A DNA stretch of 64,000 bases. Origin: Escherichia phage vB_EcoM_DE16. The DNA is taken from sequence record OP595145.1, one strand, 5' to 3'. A program made the position numbers and the translations under genes. Below are positions 6,158-54,322 of the stretch, piece by piece. The notes under the pieces are model-generated. The model was given only the letters and a program-made list of their open reading frames with translations, was not told the DNA's origin and did no database searches. The first letter of the stretch is position 1; every line of letters starts with the position of its first letter.

Positions 6158-7531
6158 ATGGCAACTTTTCGTGAAAAGGTAGCAACCGTAACTTTACTGT
6201 ATGGTGCTACATCAATTCGTGAAACCCAGTTCGATATTCCCCTGATCCTTACAGGTCAGAATGTAACTGGCGAAGCGATTCAATATTACTCTTCTTCCGA
6301 TGCACTTTTGGAAGCAGGTTATGGATTAAATGATCCAGCGTATATTATGGCAGTCAAACTGTTTAACGGTTTGTTCCCACCAGATCAAGTCATGGTTGGT
6401 AAGCGTGAAGTTACAAACTTTACTCTAACTCCAATCGTAGAAGATAGTGCAACTTACACAATTACCATCAAAAATGGTACCAAGAAAAAAGAATTTAAAT
6501 TCATTGCTGATGACACTGCAACTGCACAAGAGATTGTAGTTGGTCTGACTGAAATGATCAATGCAGATCTTGTTTATGGCCCACTGTTTACAGTAGCTAA
6601 CAACGGCGCTGCAATGACTTTCACTCCAGTAGAAGGTAAGTTTGGTTCTATTGACAGCACAGGTTTCACTCAAGAAACTGTCTATGCTAATGCTATTACG
6701 GAAGATATCGCTGCTCTGCATGATATTGATAGTAGCTGGTTCTGGACCCTTTCAGATTCCCATGAAACAGAAGATGTTCTAGCTTTGGCTGCATGGGTAG
6801 AAGAGAATGATAAAGTTTACTTCTTCTCTAGCTCTGAACCTGGAATTAAAACGAAAGCAGAAGATAACGTTCTGGAACGACTGAATGACCTCGGCTATAA
6901 TAACACTTGCTTTGCTTTGTGGATGACCGATGCAGATTCTGTATTCCCAGAAGCAGCAGTTGTTGGTGCAATCTGTTCTCGTCAACCTGGTTTAACTACT
7001 CTTCACGGTAAAACACTGGTAGGTGTAGAGATCGAGAAACTGGATCAGACTTCGGAAAACAATATTGTTCAACAGAACGGTAACATCTATCGTAAAGAGC
7101 ATGGAACTCTGTTCTATCGTGATGGATTGATGGTTAGCGGTTTCTTTGTTGACTATGTTGTTCATGCTTTGTGGTTTAAAGCTCGCACAGAAGAATCACT
7201 GTTTACACTGTTTAAACAACAGTCTATGCTGGGTGGTGGTGTTCGTGCTACTTCAAACGGTCTGGCTTTGATTCGACAAGCTGTTCTGGCTAACCCGATC
7301 CAAGTAGGTATCCTCAACGGTTCCATCGCTAATGAAGTTGTTACTTCTGAAGAGACTGGTTTGCGTGTCGATCTGAAACCTATTGTTTATATTCCTTCTC
7401 GTGCCGATATGACCGATGCGCAAATCAATGCTCGTCTGGTTGATGGGATGAAGATTGAATATGTTTACGCTGGCTTCTTCCATTACGTTAAAGTTCAGGT
7501 CAACGTCCTGACTAACCGTACTGCAAACTAA
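6158..7531 (+). CDS. tail sheath protein
   Basis: 457 aa; RBS AGGAG; immediately precedes a 159-aa tube-like gene; size and order typical of contractile tails. Confidence 0.65.
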   Translation: MATFREKVATVTLLYGATSIRETQFDIPLILTGQNVTGEAIQYYSSSDALLEAGYGLNDPAYIMAVKLFNGLFPPDQVMVGKREVTNFTLTPIVEDSATYTITIKNGTKKKEFKFIADDTATAQEIVVGLTEMINADLVYGPLFTVANNGAAMTFTPVEGKFGSIDSTGFTQETVYANAITEDIAALHDIDSSWFWTLSDSHETEDVLALAAWVEENDKVYFFSSSEPGIKTKAEDNVLERLNDLGYNNTCFALWMTDADSVFPEAAVVGAICSRQPGLTTLHGKTLVGVEIEKLDQTSENNIVQQNGNIYRKEHGTLFYRDGLMVSGFFVDYVVHALWFKARTEESLFTLFKQQSMLGGGVRATSNGLALIRQAVLANPIQVGILNGSIANEVVTSEETGLRVDLKPIVYIPSRADMTDAQINARLVDGMKIEYVYAGFFHYVKVQVNVLTNRTAN

Positions 7532-7533
7532 TA

Positions 7534-7560
7534 CGGCGGGGGTTAAGCCCCCGTTATCAA
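7534..7560 (+). terminator. hairpin terminator after sheath gene
   Basis: GC stem CGGGGG/CCCCCG with short loop then TTATCAAAAT; T-tract is weak. Confidence 0.4.
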
Positions 7561-7577
7561 AATAAAGAGGATCTATA

Positions 7578-8057
7578 ATGGATAAAATGCTTACTGGCGT
7601 AATGGCCTACGACCCATCTCAAGTTATCCTTTCATTAGGTGGTTGGGAACCGTGGGGTTTTGCGGCTGATACTAAAATCGTTATTGCTAAATCTAACGAT
7701 ATTATCAACCCTTATTCAGGGACTGATGGTGACGTTTCACTAGCTTTGAGTCGTAACCGTTTGGGAACACTCACAATGTCTTTGCAACGCACATCTCCAG
7801 CTAACGAAGTACTTGCAACATATGCACAAACAATGTATTCTACTCGTCAAGTAGCATTCAGTGTTTACTTGGAAGACCCACGTGGCTATTACATTAGCAC
7901 GATTGGATGGATTCAAAGTCAGCCTGAAGATACTATTGGCGAAATGATTACAGAGAACCAATGGGTTATTGGTCTTAAAGATGCAAGCCTTCTGCGTAAT
8001 GAAGTTGGTGTAGGTTTGAGCACCCTTAACTCAATCTCTGCTCTGACAATTCAATAA
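7578..8057 (+). CDS. tail tube protein
   Basis: 159 aa; follows sheath; followed by a strong terminator. Confidence 0.6.
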   Translation: MDKMLTGVMAYDPSQVILSLGGWEPWGFAADTKIVIAKSNDIINPYSGTDGDVSLALSRNRLGTLTMSLQRTSPANEVLATYAQTMYSTRQVAFSVYLEDPRGYYISTIGWIQSQPEDTIGEMITENQWVIGLKDASLLRNEVGVGLSTLNSISALTIQ

Positions 8058-8063
8058 TAAATA

Positions 8064-8085
8064 AAGGGCAGAAATGCCCTTTTTA
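8064..8085 (+). terminator. rho-independent terminator after tube gene
   Basis: AAGGGCA-GAAA-TGCCCTT followed by TTTT. Confidence 0.65.
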
Positions 8086-8102
8086 TCATTAGAGAGGAAA
8101 AT

Positions 8103-8585
8103 ATGTCACAAGAACAAGATAACACAATTCAAAAATATGCTCGACCAGAAGAAGTAGTTGAGATTCCGTTAGATGGAAACAGATCTGTTACTTTCCGTAT
8201 TATGAAGTGGAGTCCATCTAAAGTGTTTGACAGGATTCCAGAATTGGGTAGTGTTCTGGTTGTTCCTATGACTATGTATAGCACAGCAACAATGTCCGCA
8301 GACGAAGACCTTGAGTCACGTATTGCTATGGCACTGATCCAACTTTTTGCAGGTTTGGAAGAAAAGAATTTAACTGTCTTTTTGCGTAAAATTTTAGATG
8401 AGGTTTATACTCAAGACGGTTATAACGTTGCAGAAAATTTTGATGAATTATTTATGGCTCACCCAGAACTAGTGTTAGATCTTACTGCTAAAGTTCTGGA
8501 GGTAAACTACGGCCCTTTTTTCAAACGAGGTTTCGGAAAACTGTTCACACAGCTTCAGGCGATGACGAGTTTAGCAGCAAATTAA
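8103..8585 (+). CDS. tail assembly chaperone (gpG/gpE-like)
   Basis: 160 aa between tube and tape measure genes; contains slippery heptamer T_TTT_TTC at 8516-8522. Confidence 0.55.
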   Translation: MSQEQDNTIQKYARPEEVVEIPLDGNRSVTFRIMKWSPSKVFDRIPELGSVLVVPMTMYSTATMSADEDLESRIAMALIQLFAGLEEKNLTVFLRKILDEVYTQDGYNVAENFDELFMAHPELVLDLTAKVLEVNYGPFFKRGFGKLFTQLQAMTSLAAN

Positions 8586-8851
8586 CACCTGCGATTGAAC
8601 ATGCTATCGACACAGCAACGAAAACCCTTACTTTGAAGTGGTATGAGGTTATTCTTTGCAAAGTCGTTAAAGATACCTCGGAAACACTGAAAACATTGGA
8701 TAACTACGGTGTAGATTATCTTTTAAAACTATATGAGTATTTAACATACGAAGAGTATGTTGAAGCCATGTATGTTAAAGACACTTCAATAAAGAGAAAA
8801 CATCAAAACCAGACAAATAAAATGTCAGATTTGTTTAAGAAACTTGTTTAA
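8103..8851 (+). CDS. tail assembly chaperone, predicted -1 frameshift-extended form (GT/E' analogue)
   Basis: The -1 frame is open from 8492 to the stop at 8849-8851; slip at 8516-8522 would fuse about 139 aa of frame 0 to about 110 aa of the -1 frame. Confidence 0.45.
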
Positions 8852-8871
8852 TCCAACACGAGGAACATACT

Positions 8872-10860
8872 TTGTTAGAAATTAACGCCTCCAAAATTAG
8901 TAACGTGGTTACGTTTAAGGTGGACAAGAACAGTCTCAAGGAAGCAAAAGATGCCGTGTTGAGTGTTCAGAAGTTTGCAAATAAAATGCAACCCACTATG
9001 AACATGACCAAGTTTAGACAACAAATGAAAGAGATTGAGCGTGAACTTAAGAAAGCTCAAACTCAAAGTCAAAAACCTATGCGAGCACCTACTCCCGCTG
9101 GAGCGGGTGCTCCTGTAGGCGGATCTGGCAGACCTAGAACTCCTAAAACCCCGCAAGGAAGAGAAGAAGAAAAAGCTCGTAAAGCGGCTGAACGCGAAGC
9201 TAAAGCAGCAGCACGTAGGGAAGACTTAGGTAATCTTCGTTTGCAGAACTTTAACTACCGAGCAAGAGCATTCAGTAAAGCTAGTCCTGGTGCTATGCAA
9301 GAAGCTAGAGACGTTATGGGTAAAGCTGTAGAGCAATACAAAAAGGGTGAAATAACTCTTCAACGTATGAACCAAGCTCTTGCTCACCAGTTGGATGCTT
9401 TACGCAGATCTCATCGTGAAAAGAATGCTGAAATAGAAGACGAGGTTCGCGGTCGTCGCCGTATTCGTAGAGAGCTAGAAGCAGAAGCTAAAATGCGTAT
9501 ACGTATGCGAAATCGTGAACTTAGAGATATAGAACGCAACCGTAAGCGGGAATTAGCTCAACAAAAACGTGATCGTGATCGTAGATATGGACAATTAAAA
9601 GAAGGTGCAGCAGGTCTTAATCCACGCATGATTGCATCCTCTTTGATTGGTGCTGGGCTGTTTGCAGGTGGTTCTGTAGTTGGTAACACGTTGATGAATA
9701 CTAACGAAAGAATTAAACTTGTAAGCCGTGGTGCTGAAAACGTTCAGACAAACGCCAACGCTATTTTGGCAATGACAGCTTGGGGTGAACAGAACGGTGT
9801 AGACTCTGCAAATATTATTAAATCAATAGATAATATTAAAGACGTTCGTGAACGTCTTGGTAATACAGTTTTAGCTGCAAAGTGGAATGAGAAAGAAGGG
9901 AAGTGGAAAGGCGGTGATAATGGCATAACTGACATTATGAACCTGTTTGGATGGAATCCAGAACAGCTTAAACCTTTACAGAACGATCCTTTAGCTTTTA
10001 TTCAGGCTACTGTTAATGAAGGTGAGCGTCGAGGTATGAACTCTGCTCAAATAGGGCGACTTCTTGAAAACCTTGGTGATGACCTTATGCACTACCAACG
10101 CATGTTTAGTAAAAACGGCGAAGGGTATAATGAAGTATTGAAAATGCTTCAAAGAACAGGTGCAACATTAACTCAAGAACAAATAGATGCTTCTAAGGAG
10201 TTTACTCGTTTTGCTGCAACAGTTCAGCTTGTAGGTCAAGGTATGCAGAACCATTTCTTAGAGGGTTTTGTGAAAGCCTTACCTAAAGATGATTCTTGGT
10301 TGGATAACGTTAAAGTGCTAGATCAGTTCGCCAAAGATTTAGGTGAAGAACTTGGTAAAACAACAGTTCAACTTGGTGGTTTTGCTAAAGAATTAGGAGA
10401 TGGTTTCGGATCTTTTACCAATTGGCTTAAAGAAACATTCCCAGATACCTTCGGAGACAACACAGATCCTAATAAATCTTTGGCACAAAAAGCATACGAG
10501 GCAACGCAAAGTGGAGACAGCAATCCTGTAGCAGATTGGTTGTACAATTTAACAGGTATTGATACACAAGATATTGGTCGTATGTGGAGAGGAGAACAAA
10601 CAAGGACACGTGCTTTTGGATTTGGTAATCCTCTTGAAGATTTACGTGAATCAGCCTATACACCTAACGTAAGTTTGGCTCGTAATCAACCTGTTGTTGA
10701 GAATACGGTAGCAATACCAAGTGATCTTATCAAAGTTACGATCAGTCCTTCTTCCGAGTTTGGAAATATTCTTGATGCAAGAATTCAAAATAGCGGAAAT
10801 AGCATTTTCCAACGTTTGTCTCTTTCAACTCTAAGTGGACAATCTAACACTGGTGGTTAA
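8872..10860 (+). CDS. tail tape measure protein
   Basis: 662 aa, TTG start after RBS; long charged R/E/K helical region (RRIRRELEAEAKMRIRMRNRELRDIERNRKRE) and a glycine-rich hydrophobic segment; position after chaperone. Confidence 0.65.
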   Translation: MLEINASKISNVVTFKVDKNSLKEAKDAVLSVQKFANKMQPTMNMTKFRQQMKEIERELKKAQTQSQKPMRAPTPAGAGAPVGGSGRPRTPKTPQGREEEKARKAAEREAKAAARREDLGNLRLQNFNYRARAFSKASPGAMQEARDVMGKAVEQYKKGEITLQRMNQALAHQLDALRRSHREKNAEIEDEVRGRRRIRRELEAEAKMRIRMRNRELRDIERNRKRELAQQKRDRDRRYGQLKEGAAGLNPRMIASSLIGAGLFAGGSVVGNTLMNTNERIKLVSRGAENVQTNANAILAMTAWGEQNGVDSANIIKSIDNIKDVRERLGNTVLAAKWNEKEGKWKGGDNGITDIMNLFGWNPEQLKPLQNDPLAFIQATVNEGERRGMNSAQIGRLLENLGDDLMHYQRMFSKNGEGYNEVLKMLQRTGATLTQEQIDASKEFTRFAATVQLVGQGMQNHFLEGFVKALPKDDSWLDNVKVLDQFAKDLGEELGKTTVQLGGFAKELGDGFGSFTNWLKETFPDTFGDNTDPNKSLAQKAYEATQSGDSNPVADWLYNLTGIDTQDIGRMWRGEQTRTRAFGFGNPLEDLRESAYTPNVSLARNQPVVENTVAIPSDLIKVTISPSSEFGNILDARIQNSGNSIFQRLSLSTLSGQSNTGG

Positions 10861-53350: not shown

Positions 53351-53788
53351 TTAACGTCGCTTGCTACGAGATGAACTCTTTTTACTTAAAGGGCTATTGT
53401 AAGATTTACGAGTTGTATAGCTACTATTTGTTTTAAAAGTTTGTCTCGGCTTTTCATAAGTTTTTATCTCTTGTTTAGGCTTACCATAAAAATTAGTTTT
53501 CGGTTTAGGTGTATTATAATGCTTATTAATAATCGTTCTGTTATCGTTATAATCTCCACTGCTACGATTACTACCGCCACTCATCATATGCCCTAACAAC
53601 ATACCTGTAGCAAACTCACCAACACCGCTACTACTAGAACCGCCACCATTGTTGATAATAGTTGTATCTCCGTCAGATCCTTGTTGAGCGTATTGTTGAG
53701 GAGGTTGTTGGTATTGTGCAGGATTTGTTTCATCCTCGCAAGCTGTTAAAAAGATACAACCAATTAAAATCAGGGCTAGTTTTTTCAT
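53351..53788 (-). CDS. lipoprotein (signal peptidase II substrate), low-complexity
   Basis: Start re-assigned to ATG (MKKLALILIGCIFLTAC) after GAGGAAAG; lipobox LTAC; Q/G/S-rich mature region. Confidence 0.5.
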   Translation of the reverse strand: MKKLALILIGCIFLTACEDETNPAQYQQPPQQYAQQGSDGDTTIINNGGGSSSSGVGEFATGMLLGHMMSGGSNRSSGDYNDNRTIINKHYNTPKPKTNFYGKPKQEIKTYEKPRQTFKTNSSYTTRKSYNSPLSKKSSSRSKRR

Positions 53789-53877
53789 ATTTGCTTTCCT
53801 CGTTTTGGCTATTAATACATCTGTGTTTGAAATCTCCAGAGAAGCAATAAAGTTGCTCTCCATCTCGGTATAAACTC

Positions 53878-53906
53878 ACTTTACTGCCGTTGATTATGCT
53901 TGTCAA
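53878..53906 (-). promoter_or_regulatory. sigma70-like promoter, TTGACA-N17-TAAAGT
   Basis: Consensus -35 with 17-nt spacer upstream of the lipoprotein gene. Confidence 0.35.
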
Positions 53907-53971
53907 TACAAAAATTACAACAAACAACCCTATTGCAAAACAGATATTTTCAAACACAACCAACAAGTATT

Positions 53972-54322
53972 TCATTTTAAAAATACCTCATCATCAGTTT
54001 CATTATCCCAGAAGAACAAATCCCAACCACTTGGATCATTCCATTTGGCTGCTGGAGAAGTCCATATTTGCTCAATATCAATATTCAAAACTTCACCGTT
54101 TCGTTTTGAAACAGCTTTAGTTAATTCCCAACGGGATACAGGCTCCACTTCCCCTGAACCACTCCCACAACAAGCTACAACATTAGGAGGCAAATTAATT
54201 GGATCTTTGGTCACAATCATAACGCTTACCCCAGGGTAAACTTTTGAAAGATAATCTGAAATATAATCCACATCACCAGATAAATCCCAAACAAGTTCTT
54301 GAATTTCATCAAAATTATTCAT
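53972..54322 (-). CDS. hypothetical protein
   Basis: 116 aa; RBS GGAGG. Confidence 0.4.
   Translation of the reverse strand: MNNFDEIQELVWDLSGDVDYISDYLSKVYPGVSVMIVTKDPINLPPNVVACCGSGSGEVEPVSRWELTKAVSKRNGEVLNIDIEQIWTSPAAKWNDPSGWDLFFWDNETDDEVFLK

What the first reader, a model, noticed from the sequence alone, without database searches (positions are those of the whole stretch)
8492..8851. Predicted programmed -1 ribosomal frameshift in the tail assembly chaperone
The chaperone ORF (8103-8585) contains the slippery heptamer T_TTT_TTC at 8516-8522, and the -1 frame is open from 8492 to 8851. A -1 slip would give a fusion of about 249 aa, analogous to lambda G/GT and P2 E/E'. The location between tube and tape measure genes is the canonical position.
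Basis: partly seen in the sequence, partly recalled or inferred. Interest (0 to 1): 0.5.

Follow-up and report, generated by a model that had tools for sequence, protein, structure and literature searches.

The report
Conserved tail-chaperone ribosomal frameshift site
A tail-assembly gene of this E. coli phage has a slippery run of T's where some ribosomes most likely slip back one base and make a longer second protein, a well-known phage trick that is conserved here but not annotated in any database record I examined.

Summary
The window is a phAPEC8/ESCO5-like Phapecoctavirus. Its tail assembly chaperone (TAC) ORF 8103-8585 reads GGC CCT TTT TTC, so T_TTT_TTC (8516-8522) is in phase, and C_CCT_TTT (8513-8519) overlaps it. 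The -1 frame is open from 8492 to 8851. A slip gives exactly 249 aa (140 + 109), 28.8 kDa, against 160 aa and 18.2 kDa for the short form.

Comparative evidence strongly supports a programmed -1 ribosomal frameshift:
- T_TTT_TTC is kept in 17 diverged lineages (Stephanstirmvirinae, Vequintavirinae, Aeromonas TS9). The preceding codon changes amino acid (Pro/Cys/Ser) yet always ends in T.
- Two lineages replace it with other canonical heptamers: C_CCT_TTT in KLEP7 and G_GGA_AAG in Rheinheimera Barba1A.
- The -1 ORF has no conserved start codon. It shows coding-type substitutions upstream of any possible start and carries a conserved RFR[K/R] motif directly after the slip site.
- -1-frame stops are frequent upstream of the heptamer and absent downstream in the 17 lineages counted.

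No conserved stimulatory RNA structure was found, as is also reported for P2 E/E'. An upstream GGAGG is present but not universal.

None of the 20 annotated GenBank/RefSeq loci I retrieved joins the two ORFs. The extension appears as a 64-85 aa "hypothetical protein". This is an ordinary mechanism and a new, unannotated member of a known kind. It has not been tested experimentally.

The parts
7578..8057 (+). Tail tube gene (159 aa), upstream neighbour of the chaperone
   Evidence: ORF. Pfam PF11681 KPP10_Orf10, 24.4 bits, just under the cut-off of 25. PHROG 280 'virion structural protein', 3e-35. Annotated 'putative tail tube' in the REC, SKA64 and 05F01 records.
8063..8082 (+). Terminator-like hairpin with a T tail between the tube and chaperone genes (context; it may lower chaperone transcription relative to the tube)
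   Evidence: Consensus scan, 8-bp stem with 4 G-C pairs. A 'terminator' feature is annotated under the 1.5-kb match in the ASO2A and Schickermooser records. Function not tested.
8103..8585 (+). Tail assembly chaperone, short form (TAC-N, 'G-like'): 160 aa, 18.2 kDa, made by standard decoding
   Evidence: ORF. Pfam PF21822 Phage_TAC_15, 1.3e-23, 84 bits against a cut-off of 22. PHROG 3840 tail assembly chaperone, 2.8e-55. RefSeq annotation 'tail assembly chaperone'. Mass.
8498..8502 (+). Shine-Dalgarno-like GGAGG, with 13 nt between it and T_TTT_TTC and 10 nt between it and C_CCT_TTT; a possible but unproven upstream stimulator
   Evidence: Position. An SD-like tetramer or longer is present at this place in 13 of 19 lineages and absent in 6. 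It also encodes the conserved Leu-Glu-Val. Sharma et al. searched 6-17 nt upstream for such stimulators (PMC4066793).
8513..8522 (+). Slippery tract C_CCT_TTT_TTC: two overlapping in-phase heptamers. T_TTT_TTC (8516-8522) is the one conserved across the clade
   Evidence: Both belong to the H_HH.U_UU.Y class, listed among the most efficient -1 motifs in E. coli (PMC4066793).
8528..8539 (+). -1-frame codons AGG TTT CGG AAA (RFRK), the first conserved residues of the extension. They are dual-coded with zero-frame G-F-G-K
   Evidence: RFR[K/R/Q/D] is kept in 14 of the 15 aligned lineages (05F01 has RFQK), and GGTTT is invariant in the 14-sequence DNA alignment. rV5 changes zero-frame Phe to Leu (TTA) but keeps -1-frame RFR.
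8522..8851 (+). -1-frame extension: 109 codons plus stop. It comprises a variable linker and then a conserved helical C-terminal domain
   Evidence: PHROG 16039 and 10409, 'unknown function'. AlphaFold2 model is all-helical, pLDDT 72.8.
8103..8851 (+). Predicted long form (TAC-NC, 'GT-like'): join(8103..8522, 8522..8851), 249 aa, 28.8 kDa
   Evidence: Constructed. tblastn of the fusion matches relatives as two pieces in two frames over its full length.
8872..10860 (+). Tape measure protein gene (662 aa), downstream neighbour
   Evidence: ORF. PHROG 16051 tail length tape measure protein, 1246 bits. RefSeq annotation.

Best explanation
The tail assembly chaperone gene is decoded in two ways. 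Most ribosomes read 8103-8585 and make the 160-aa short chaperone. A minority slip back one base while tRNA-Phe occupies the P site on UUU and the A site on UUC of U_UUU_UUC (8516-8522). Alternatively they slip one codon earlier, on C_CCU_UUU. They then read CAA ACG AGG ... to the stop at 8849-8851 and make a 249-aa protein. This long form shares the first 140 residues and carries a 109-residue extension: a linker plus a conserved helical domain. By analogy with lambda gpG/gpGT and P2 E/E+E', both forms would coat the tape measure protein, and the extension of the rare long form would recruit the tube protein. Neither form would end up in the virion. What is shown here: the sequence architecture, its conservation, and the coding constraint on the -1 frame from the slip site onwards. 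What is inferred: that slippage occurs on the ribosome, how efficient it is, and the assembly role of each form.
For: (1) The phase, the frame and the 249-aa product are as described.

(2) The upstream ORF is a TAC by Pfam PF21822 (84 bits) and PHROG 3840. It lies between the tube and tape measure genes.

(3) T_TTT_TTC is in phase at the homologous position in 17 lineages. These are 9 Stephanstirmvirinae at about 73-75% nt identity or less, 7 Vequintavirinae at about 30% protein identity, and Aeromonas TS9.

(4) The codon before Phe-Phe is CCT (Pro), TGT (Cys) or AGT (Ser). The amino acid changes but the synonymous third base T, the X of the heptamer, does not. Phe-Phe is always TTT-TTC.

(5) Where the T-rich heptamer is lost, another canonical heptamer appears. 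KLEP7 has C_CCT_TTT, with only five T's. Rheinheimera Barba1A has G_GGA_AAG 12 nt downstream with no T run. In both, the -1 ORF is conserved.

(6) In 17 of the 18 lineages tabulated (all but Barba1A, 93 nt) the last -1-frame stop lies 9-36 nt upstream of the heptamer, and the conserved -1-frame RFR motif starts 6-9 nt after it. In rV5-like phages this confines the shift to about 21 nt whose only slippery element is the heptamer.

(7) -1-frame stops occur at 0.106 per codon upstream of the heptamer. None occurs in 443 overlap codons pooled over 17 lineages, where 46.7 would be expected. The lineages are not independent.

(8) There is no conserved start codon. Apart from an ATG 3 nt upstream of the heptamer in Hena1, the first ATG/GTG/TTG in the -1 ORF falls 28 to 83 codons after the slip site, depending on lineage, often after most of the conserved domain. 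In the window it is a TTG at 8633 with no SD. Gene callers start the homologues at 7 different alignment columns.

(9) The 16 codons between the TAC stop and that TTG evolve as coding sequence in the -1 frame only. Differences at codon positions 1/2/3 are 32/24/70. Synonymous versus non-synonymous changes are 37/52 there, against 12/77 and 1/85 in the other two frames.

(10) U_UU.U_UU.C and C_CC.U_UU.U are in the most efficient class in E. coli, where the A-site tRNA re-pairs cognately (PMC4066793).

(11) A -1 frameshift on a conserved GTTTTT motif was recently proposed for TACs of Vandenendeviridae and Andersonviridae, which that paper relates to Vequintavirinae and Stephanstirmvirinae (PMC12846349).
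Against: No protein evidence exists. The fusion has not been observed, and no database holds a fused or joined product: all 18 homologues of the extension are 64-85 aa fragments.

No conserved downstream stimulatory RNA structure was found. RNAalifold gives 0 pairs across 14 lineages. Within each subfamily it gives only -1.06 and -0.25 kcal/mol helices, with a single both-sides (compensatory) change in one pair of the Vequintavirinae helix and none in the other. The window's own fold is no better than shuffles, z = 0.15.

The upstream GGAGG is absent in 6 of 19 lineages and is confounded with coding.

A run of six T's could in principle also support RNA polymerase slippage, which sequence alone cannot fully exclude for this particular phage.

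The lineages share ancestry, so the counts are not independent trials.
Confidence: 0.85

Rival explanations
1. Transcriptional slippage. RNA polymerase stutters on the T6 tract (8516-8521) and adds one U to a fraction of transcripts. Standard translation of those mRNAs then gives the same 249-aa fusion.
For: The tract is a homopolymer of six T's, conserved in 17 lineages. Because both mechanisms give the same protein, proteomics could not tell them apart. Transcriptional slippage is a known alternative route to frameshifted products (review PMC5009743).
Against: Barba1A has no T run at all; it has G_GGA_AAG, a canonical ribosomal heptamer. KLEP7 has only T5, but in a correctly phased C_CCT_TTT. 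What is conserved is therefore the X_XXY_YYZ rule and not homopolymer length. From my own knowledge, not tested here: efficient slippage by E. coli RNA polymerase generally needs runs of about 8-9 or more A/T, or a special upstream hairpin.
Confidence: 0.07
2. Two separate genes. The downstream ORF is translated independently as a small protein of about 72 aa (TTG 8633 to 8851), as many GenBank records annotate it, and no fusion is made.
For: Several records annotate a separate 'hypothetical protein'. Gene callers produce 64-85 aa products. PHROG 16039 is built on such 72-aa calls.
Against: The window has no ATG/GTG/TTG between 8492 and 8633, and the TTG has no SD (upstream gcaacgaaaacccttact). 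The first possible start shifts between codon 28 and codon 83 among homologues and often falls inside or after the conserved domain. There is coding-type constraint in the -1 frame upstream of the start. RFR is conserved in the -1 frame inside the overlap. The -1 frame is kept open back to the heptamer in every lineage. RefSeq curators themselves dropped the small ORF in ESCO5, leaving a 286-nt gap.
Confidence: 0.04
3. Chance coincidence. The heptamer and the open -1 frame are fortuitous, and the 286 nt between the chaperone and the tape measure gene are non-coding.
For: In-phase heptamers are common, 4 per 1000 codons in this AT-rich (39% GC) window.
Against: The -1 continuation of 109-110 codons is the maximum of 78 sites, against a median of 5. 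At the upstream stop rate, P is about 5e-6. The extension is conserved as protein down to about 30% identity across subfamilies.
Confidence: 0.02

Closest known systems
Phage lambda gpG / gpGT tail assembly chaperone frameshift (Levin 1993; Xu, Hendrix and Duda 2004, 2013, 2014; summarised in PMC5009743)
   Same: A gene pair sits immediately upstream of the tape measure gene. [quoted passage not shown] The two products share an N-terminus and the extension has no start of its own. The distant relative Barba1A even uses G_GGA_AAG, which from my memory is lambda's heptamer.
   Different: The heptamer here is T_TTT_TTC, overlapped by C_CCT_TTT. This phage is a contractile-tailed myovirus. The extension has no detectable sequence similarity to any Pfam family (no hit at E <= 0.1 other than a spurious Dodecin match), so it is not a sequence-level member of lambda's T family. 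The product ratio (30:1 in lambda) is unknown here.
Phage P2 E / E+E' frameshift (Christie 2002; described in PMC3091744)
   Same: It is a myovirus with the gene order sheath, tube, chaperone pair, tape measure. It makes a -1 slip on a run of six T's (TTTTTTG in P2). No downstream RNA structure was found, which matches the negative result here.
   Different: The last base is C rather than G, so the A-site codon is Phe UUC rather than Leu UUG. The proteins are larger (160/249 aa against 91/142 aa). No sequence homology to P2 E was shown here.
Proposed -1 frameshift at an invariant GTTTTT motif in TAC genes of Vandenendeviridae (Pakpunavirus Adele) and Andersonviridae (PMC12846349)
   Same: These clades are related by capsid, terminase and synteny according to that paper. 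Their poly-T slip motif also lies near the 3' end of TAC-N, and their downstream ORF is also routinely mis-annotated as a hypothetical protein. Vequintavirinae relatives here read TGTTTTTTC, which contains GTTTTT.
   Different: That paper did not analyse the chaperone locus of Stephanstirmvirinae or Vequintavirinae. The window has CCTTTTTTC, with no G. tblastn with three different fusion proteins did not reach those families, so homology of the sites is not demonstrated here.
E. coli dnaX and IS911/IS3 -1 frameshift signals (PMC4066793)
   Same: They have a heptamer of an efficient class and a possible upstream SD-like stimulator within the 6-17 nt range.
   Different: Those signals have defined downstream hairpins or pseudoknots. 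None is detectable here.
[quoted passage not shown]
   Same: They face the same functional need for a short and a long chaperone form.
   Different: According to PMC10885494, those phages carry one short gene and one longer fused gene. Here there is a single N-terminal coding region, and no fused homologue was found.

Membership tests
Frameshifted tail assembly chaperone pair (lambda G/GT, P2 E/E+E' type; Xu, Hendrix and Duda 2004) | The gene pair lies between the major tail/tube gene and the tape measure gene | tested here: met
   Tube 7578-8057, TAC 8103-8585, -1 ORF to 8851, tape measure 8872-10860.
Frameshifted tail assembly chaperone pair (lambda G/GT, P2 E/E+E' type; Xu, Hendrix and Duda 2004) | The upstream ORF is a tail assembly chaperone by homology | tested here: met
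   Pfam PF21822 Phage_TAC_15, 84.3 bits against a cut-off of 22. PHROG 3840, 1613, 1688 and 11820, all 'tail assembly chaperone'.
Frameshifted tail assembly chaperone pair (lambda G/GT, P2 E/E+E' type; Xu, Hendrix and Duda 2004) | The downstream ORF overlaps the 3' end of the upstream ORF in the -1 frame and lacks its own start codon and RBS | tested here: met
   94-nt overlap. The first start candidate is a TTG at 8633 with no SD. Start positions are not conserved among homologues.
Frameshifted tail assembly chaperone pair (lambda G/GT, P2 E/E+E' type; Xu, Hendrix and Duda 2004) | An in-phase X_XXY_YYZ slippery heptamer lies inside the overlap | tested here: met
   T_TTT_TTC 8516-8522 and C_CCT_TTT 8513-8519. 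Both are in an efficient class in E. coli (PMC4066793).
Frameshifted tail assembly chaperone pair (lambda G/GT, P2 E/E+E' type; Xu, Hendrix and Duda 2004) | The slip site and both reading frames are conserved in diverged relatives | tested here: met
   All 19 lineages keep an in-phase heptamer: 17 have T_TTT_TTC and 2 have a different canonical heptamer. The -1 frame shows a coding substitution pattern.
Frameshifted tail assembly chaperone pair (lambda G/GT, P2 E/E+E' type; Xu, Hendrix and Duda 2004) | Two proteins with a common N-terminus are made at a fixed low ratio | not testable with these tools
   This needs a Western blot or MS. Predicted masses are 18.2 and 28.8 kDa. Diagnostic peptides are VLEVNYGPFFK and VLEVNYGPFFQTR.
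Frameshifted tail assembly chaperone pair (lambda G/GT, P2 E/E+E' type; Xu, Hendrix and Duda 2004) | Both products are required for tail assembly and absent from virions | not testable with these tools
   There is only a weak hint. In the Pectobacterium phage CB7 record, sheath and tube carry 'MS/MS confirmed' notes, while the chaperone and the small ORF do not.
Lambda gpT-like C-terminal domain (sequence family) | The extension matches a Pfam tail-T family | tested here: not met
   No Pfam hit for 8492-8848 at E <= 0.1 except a spurious Dodecin match of 14 bits. PHROG families 16039 and 10409 are 'unknown function'. The BFVD fold search was uninformative.
Stimulated -1 frameshift signals (dnaX / IS3 / IS911 type) | A stable hairpin or pseudoknot lies 5-9 nt downstream of the heptamer and is conserved or covarying | tested here: not met
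   RNAalifold gives 0 pairs over 14 lineages. The subfamily helices are -1.06 and -0.25 kcal/mol, with only one both-sides (compensatory) change, in a single pair of the Vequintavirinae helix. The window's z-score is 0.15.
Stimulated -1 frameshift signals (dnaX / IS3 / IS911 type) | An SD-like sequence lies 6-17 nt upstream of the heptamer | tested here: inconclusive
   GGAGG lies at 8498-8502, 10-13 nt upstream. It is present in 13 of 19 lineages and confounded with the Leu-Glu-Val codons.
Programmed transcriptional slippage | A long homopolymeric A/T run is the conserved element | tested here: not met
   The run is T6 in most lineages, T5 in KLEP7 and absent in Barba1A (G_GGA_AAG). The length threshold for polymerase slippage comes from my own knowledge and was not tested.

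The most novel reading that the evidence does not exclude
The most novel reading not excluded is that this clade reaches its set frameshift level without any RNA structure, using an unusual combination of linear elements. These would be a tandem double heptamer (C_CCU_UUU_UUC, giving two chances to slip), an upstream SD-like GGAGG, and the invariant GGUUU/RFR segment 6-12 nt downstream acting as an mRNA or nascent-peptide stimulator rather than merely being dual-coded. The replacement of the site by G_GGA_AAG in Barba phages would then be a natural experiment in how slip-site strength is re-tuned.
Probability: 0.1. Interest if true: 0.5.

Novelty: new member of a known kind. Interest (0 to 1): 0.3.

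Why it matters
The biology is textbook. Long-tailed phages make a short and a long tail chaperone from one start by a -1 slip, and the ratio of the two matters for tail assembly.

The value here is mostly practical.
- For the large phAPEC8 / phi92 / rV5 / PVP-SE1 group of therapeutic-candidate E. coli, Klebsiella and Salmonella myophages, none of the 20 annotated loci I retrieved joins the two ORFs. tblastn found matches in 358-491 phage records for this group.
- The extension is either missing or filed as an orphan "hypothetical protein" (PHROG 16039 and 10409, "unknown function").
- Annotating join(8103..8522, 8522..8851) fixes a systematic error and assigns a function to two orphan families.
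- It also supplies a natural series of slip sites (T_TTT_TTC, C_CCT_TTT, G_GGA_AAG) at one homologous position, useful for studying how frameshift signals evolve.

It would not surprise a specialist.

Tried and rejected
(1) Downstream stem-loop or pseudoknot. I ran RNAalifold on 14 lineages and on each subfamily, and a single-sequence fold with shuffles. Nothing conserved or stable was found. The small hairpin that includes the U-run itself cannot act as a downstream stimulator.

(2) Naturally fused or slippage-annotated homologues. A search of the 5.8-billion-protein collection with the 109-aa extension returned 18 hits, all 64-85 aa fragments.

(3) Fold of the extension. The AlphaFold2 model from a 19-sequence alignment is all-helical but only moderately confident (pLDDT 72.8, pTM 0.41; the other four models score about 50-57). 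A Foldseek search of BFVD gave only one 73-aa homologue and noise. I drew no conclusion from it.

(4) Sequence link to the Felix O1-like (Andersonviridae) and Pakpunavirus chaperones, where a GTTTTT site was proposed. tblastn with the window, rV5 and Barba fusions did not reach them.

(5) Literature. No held paper describes this frameshift for phAPEC8, Phapecoctavirus, phi92 or rV5. Vladimirov 2022 on T4-like phages is not held.

(6) Internal initiation in the -1 frame driven by the GGAGG. I rejected this because no ATG/GTG/TTG lies between 8492 and 8633. Hena1's ATG and rV5's CTG just before the heptamer are lineage-specific.

(7) The only other long -1 continuation in the window (T_TTA_AAA at the end of minus-strand ORF 53972-54322) is an ordinary ATGA overlap.
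Full report
**What the window is.** The 1.5 kb around the finding is 99.6-100% identical to many Escherichia phages of the genus Phapecoctavirus (phAPEC8, ESCO5 and others; subfamily Stephanstirmvirinae; genomes of about 150 kb).
- The local gene order is tail sheath 6158-7531 (DUF3383), a 159-aa tube protein 7578-8057, a 160-aa ORF 8103-8585, an open -1 frame to 8851, and a 662-aa tape measure protein 8872-10860.
- The 160-aa ORF is a tail assembly chaperone (TAC): Pfam PF21822 Phage_TAC_15 at 84 bits against a cut-off of 22, and PHROG 3840 at 2.8e-55.

**Check of the observation.** In the frame of 8103-8585 the sequence reads TAC GGC CCT TTT TTC AAA CGA (Y G P F F K R).
- T_TTT_TTC at 8516-8522 is therefore correctly phased.
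A slip on either gives the same protein.
- The -1 frame has TAA at 8489-8491 and is open from 8492 to the stop at 8849-8851.
- The fusion is exactly 249 aa (140 + 109) and 28.8 kDa. The short form is 160 aa and 18.2 kDa.

**Is it more than chance?** I used a crude set of 64 ORFs in the window (19,683 codons).
- It contains 78 in-phase X_XXY_YYZ heptamers, with a median -1 continuation of 5 codons.
- The TAC site (109-110 codons) is the longest. The two other in-phase TTTTTTC sites continue for 4 and 5 codons.
- The only other long continuation (81 codons, minus strand near 53975) is a TTAAAATGA start/stop overlap of adjacent genes.
- Within the TAC gene the -1 frame has 13 stops in the 138 codons before the heptamer and none in the 109 after it.

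**Conservation of the slip site.** I retrieved the locus from 18 further lineages.
- Eight Stephanstirmvirinae relatives were examined. Six align at about 72-75% nt identity (phi92, PsgM04F, phiWec190, phiWec181, KP2025, phi1_175008). 05F01 and KP13-16 are more distant. All keep CCCTTTTTTCAA exactly (CAAACG in all but KP13-16), the same phase and a -1 ORF of 102-113 codons after the slip site.
- Seven Vequintavirinae at about 30% protein identity (rV5, Hena1, Ro1, SSE121, CB7, ChuuTotoro, 19-1-2) and Aeromonas phage TS9 also have in-phase T_TTT_TTC at the homologous position.
- The codon before Phe-Phe is CCT (Pro), TGT (Cys) or AGT (Ser). The amino acid varies while its synonymous third base stays T, as the heptamer requires. 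Phe-Phe is always TTT-TTC. This identifies T_TTT_TTC, not C_CCT_TTT, as the clade-wide site. Stephanstirmvirinae carry both.

**Replacement by other heptamers.** Two distant lineages are the most informative.
- Pseudaeromonas phage KLEP7 has lost T_TTT_TTC but has in-phase C_CCT_TTT, with a run of only five T's.
- Rheinheimera phage Barba1A has no T run. It has in-phase G_GGA_AAG 12 nt further on.
- In both, the -1 ORF and its conserved domain follow.
- The conserved property is thus the ribosomal heptamer rule and not a homopolymer. This is my main argument against RNA polymerase slippage.

**Evidence that the -1 frame is translated from the slip site.** Four lines point the same way.
- First, the shift window is narrow. 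In 17 of the 18 lineages tabulated (all but Barba1A, 93 nt) the last -1-frame stop lies 9-36 nt before the heptamer. A conserved -1-frame motif RFR[K/R] begins 6-9 nt after it. In rV5 the zero-frame Phe of G-F-G has become Leu while -1-frame RFR is kept. The invariant GGTTT in the 14-sequence alignment is explained by dual coding.
- Second, pooled over 17 lineages, -1-frame stops occur at 0.106 per codon upstream of the heptamer and never in the 443 overlap codons, where 46.7 would be expected. The lineages are not independent.
- Third, there is no conserved start. Apart from an ATG 3 nt upstream of the heptamer in Hena1, the first ATG/GTG/TTG of the -1 ORF lies 28 to 83 codons after the slip site, depending on the phage. 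In the window it is a TTG at 8633 preceded by gcaacgaaaacccttact, with no SD. In a protein database the homologues are called with 7 different start columns and lengths of 64-85 aa.
- Fourth, the 16 codons between the TAC stop and that TTG evolve as coding sequence in the -1 frame. Differences at codon positions 1/2/3 are 32/24/70. Synonymous versus non-synonymous changes are 37/52 there, against 12/77 and 1/85 in the other frames. Inside the overlap, most differences fall on the zero-frame third position and the -1 frame aligns as a variable linker, so the zero frame appears to dominate there.

**Mechanism.**
- In E. coli, U_UU.U_UU.C and C_CC.U_UU.U belong to the H_HH.U_UU.Y class, listed among the most efficient -1 motifs. 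The stated rule is that the best motifs let the A-site tRNA re-pair cognately (PMC4066793). From my own knowledge, UUC to UUU satisfies this for tRNA-Phe.
- I found no stimulatory RNA structure. RNAalifold predicts no pairs across 14 lineages. Within each subfamily it predicts only helices of -1.06 and -0.25 kcal/mol, with a single compensatory change in one pair. The window's 105 nt fold no better than shuffles, z = 0.15.
- The same absence is reported for P2 E/E+E', which slips on TTTTTTG (PMC3091744).
- A GGAGG at 8498-8502 lies 10-13 nt upstream, within the range in which SD-like stimulators were sought by Sharma et al.. It is absent from 6 of 19 lineages and coincides with the Leu-Glu-Val codons. 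Its role is open.
- The functional reading is taken by analogy from lambda (PMC5009743) and is not tested here. In that reading, the short form and the N-part of the long form bind the tape measure, the extension recruits the tube protein, and both forms are absent from virions.

**Comparison with what is known.**
- This is the conserved tail-chaperone frameshift of Xu, Hendrix and Duda (2004), in the myovirus arrangement of P2.
- A 2025 paper proposes the same event at a GTTTTT motif in Vandenendeviridae and Andersonviridae, and relates those clades to Vequintavirinae and Stephanstirmvirinae. It did not analyse the chaperone locus of the latter two (PMC12846349).
- I found no paper describing the frameshift for phAPEC8, phi92 or rV5.
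- None of the 20 annotated loci I retrieved carries a joined CDS. RefSeq ESCO5 leaves the 286 nt unannotated. Other records call a "hypothetical protein". rV5 gp050 is annotated from a CTG 3 nt before the heptamer.
- The extension matches only PHROGs of unknown function and no Pfam family. It is therefore not a sequence-level member of lambda's T family.

**Verdict.**
- I put 0.85 on a programmed -1 ribosomal frameshift at 8516-8522, with 8513-8519 as an overlapping alternative. I put about 0.07 on transcriptional slippage giving the same protein, and little on the remaining rivals.
- It is a new, unannotated member of a well-known kind. It is useful for annotation and as a natural series of slip-site replacements, but it is not surprising.
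- The fusion protein remains to be seen experimentally. The diagnostic peptide is VLEVNYGPFFQTR.

Noticed in passing
window 8063-8082 (+): A terminator-like hairpin (AAAGGGCAGAAATGCCCTTT followed by a T-rich tail) lies between the tube gene stop (8057) and the chaperone start (8103). The ASO2A and Schickermooser records list a 'terminator' feature under the 1.5-kb match, but I did not check that it lies at this position. It may lower chaperone and tape measure transcription relative to sheath and tube.
   Followed up: partly
window 53972-53981 (- strand), ORFs 53972-54322 and 53730-53975: In-phase T_TTA_AAA at the very end of a minus-strand ORF has an 81-codon -1 continuation. On inspection it is an ordinary TTAAAATGA start/stop overlap with the next gene and not a frameshift candidate.
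   Followed up: yes
records MG065650 (Campylobacter phage B15), OP562383 (Acinetobacter phage ABPW7), MH252123 (Klebsiella phage ZCKP1), and MG065639/MG065656 (Campylobacter phages A150/C3), matched to window 7500-9000: Records labelled as Campylobacter (B15), Acinetobacter or Klebsiella phages are 99.6-99.7% identical to E. coli Phapecoctavirus genomes over this locus. A150 and C3 match at phi92-like identity, about 74.5%. The host labels look doubtful, or these are contaminant isolates.
   Followed up: no
L011 (rV5, NC_011041) 1251-1619; L001 (ESCO5, NC_047776.2) 2587-2872: The -1 ORF is handled inconsistently across records. rV5 gp050 is annotated from a CTG 3 nt upstream of the heptamer. 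RefSeq ESCO5 has no feature at all in the 286 nt between chaperone and tape measure. Other records call starts at various internal codons.
   Followed up: yes
L011 (rV5) 814-842 and 1625-1662: The rV5 record annotates a sigma-70 promoter just upstream of the chaperone gene and a rho-independent terminator between the end of the -1 ORF and the tape measure gene. The chaperone pair may therefore be its own small transcription unit there. The window has only 20 nt at the corresponding place and no terminator.
   Followed up: no
L018 (Rheinheimera phage Barba1A) 1526-2136: In the 80-kb Barba phages the gene after the chaperone -1 ORF is on the opposite strand ('putative DNA binding protein'). The tape measure gene is therefore not immediately downstream, unlike in all the other lineages examined.
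   Followed up: no
L013 (Erwinia phage Hena1) 1251-1253: Hena1 has an ATG in the -1 frame exactly 3 nt before the heptamer (GGATGTTTTTTC), with GGAG 11 nt upstream. This lineage-specific possible internal start is not shared by any other lineage.
   Followed up: partly
window 8872 versus about 8998; L002 (ETEC-TG) 2999: The tape measure gene start is annotated differently between records. RefSeq ESCO5 and SKA64 use the TTG equivalent to 8872, preceded by GAGGA. ETEC-TG starts 126 nt further downstream.
   Followed up: no
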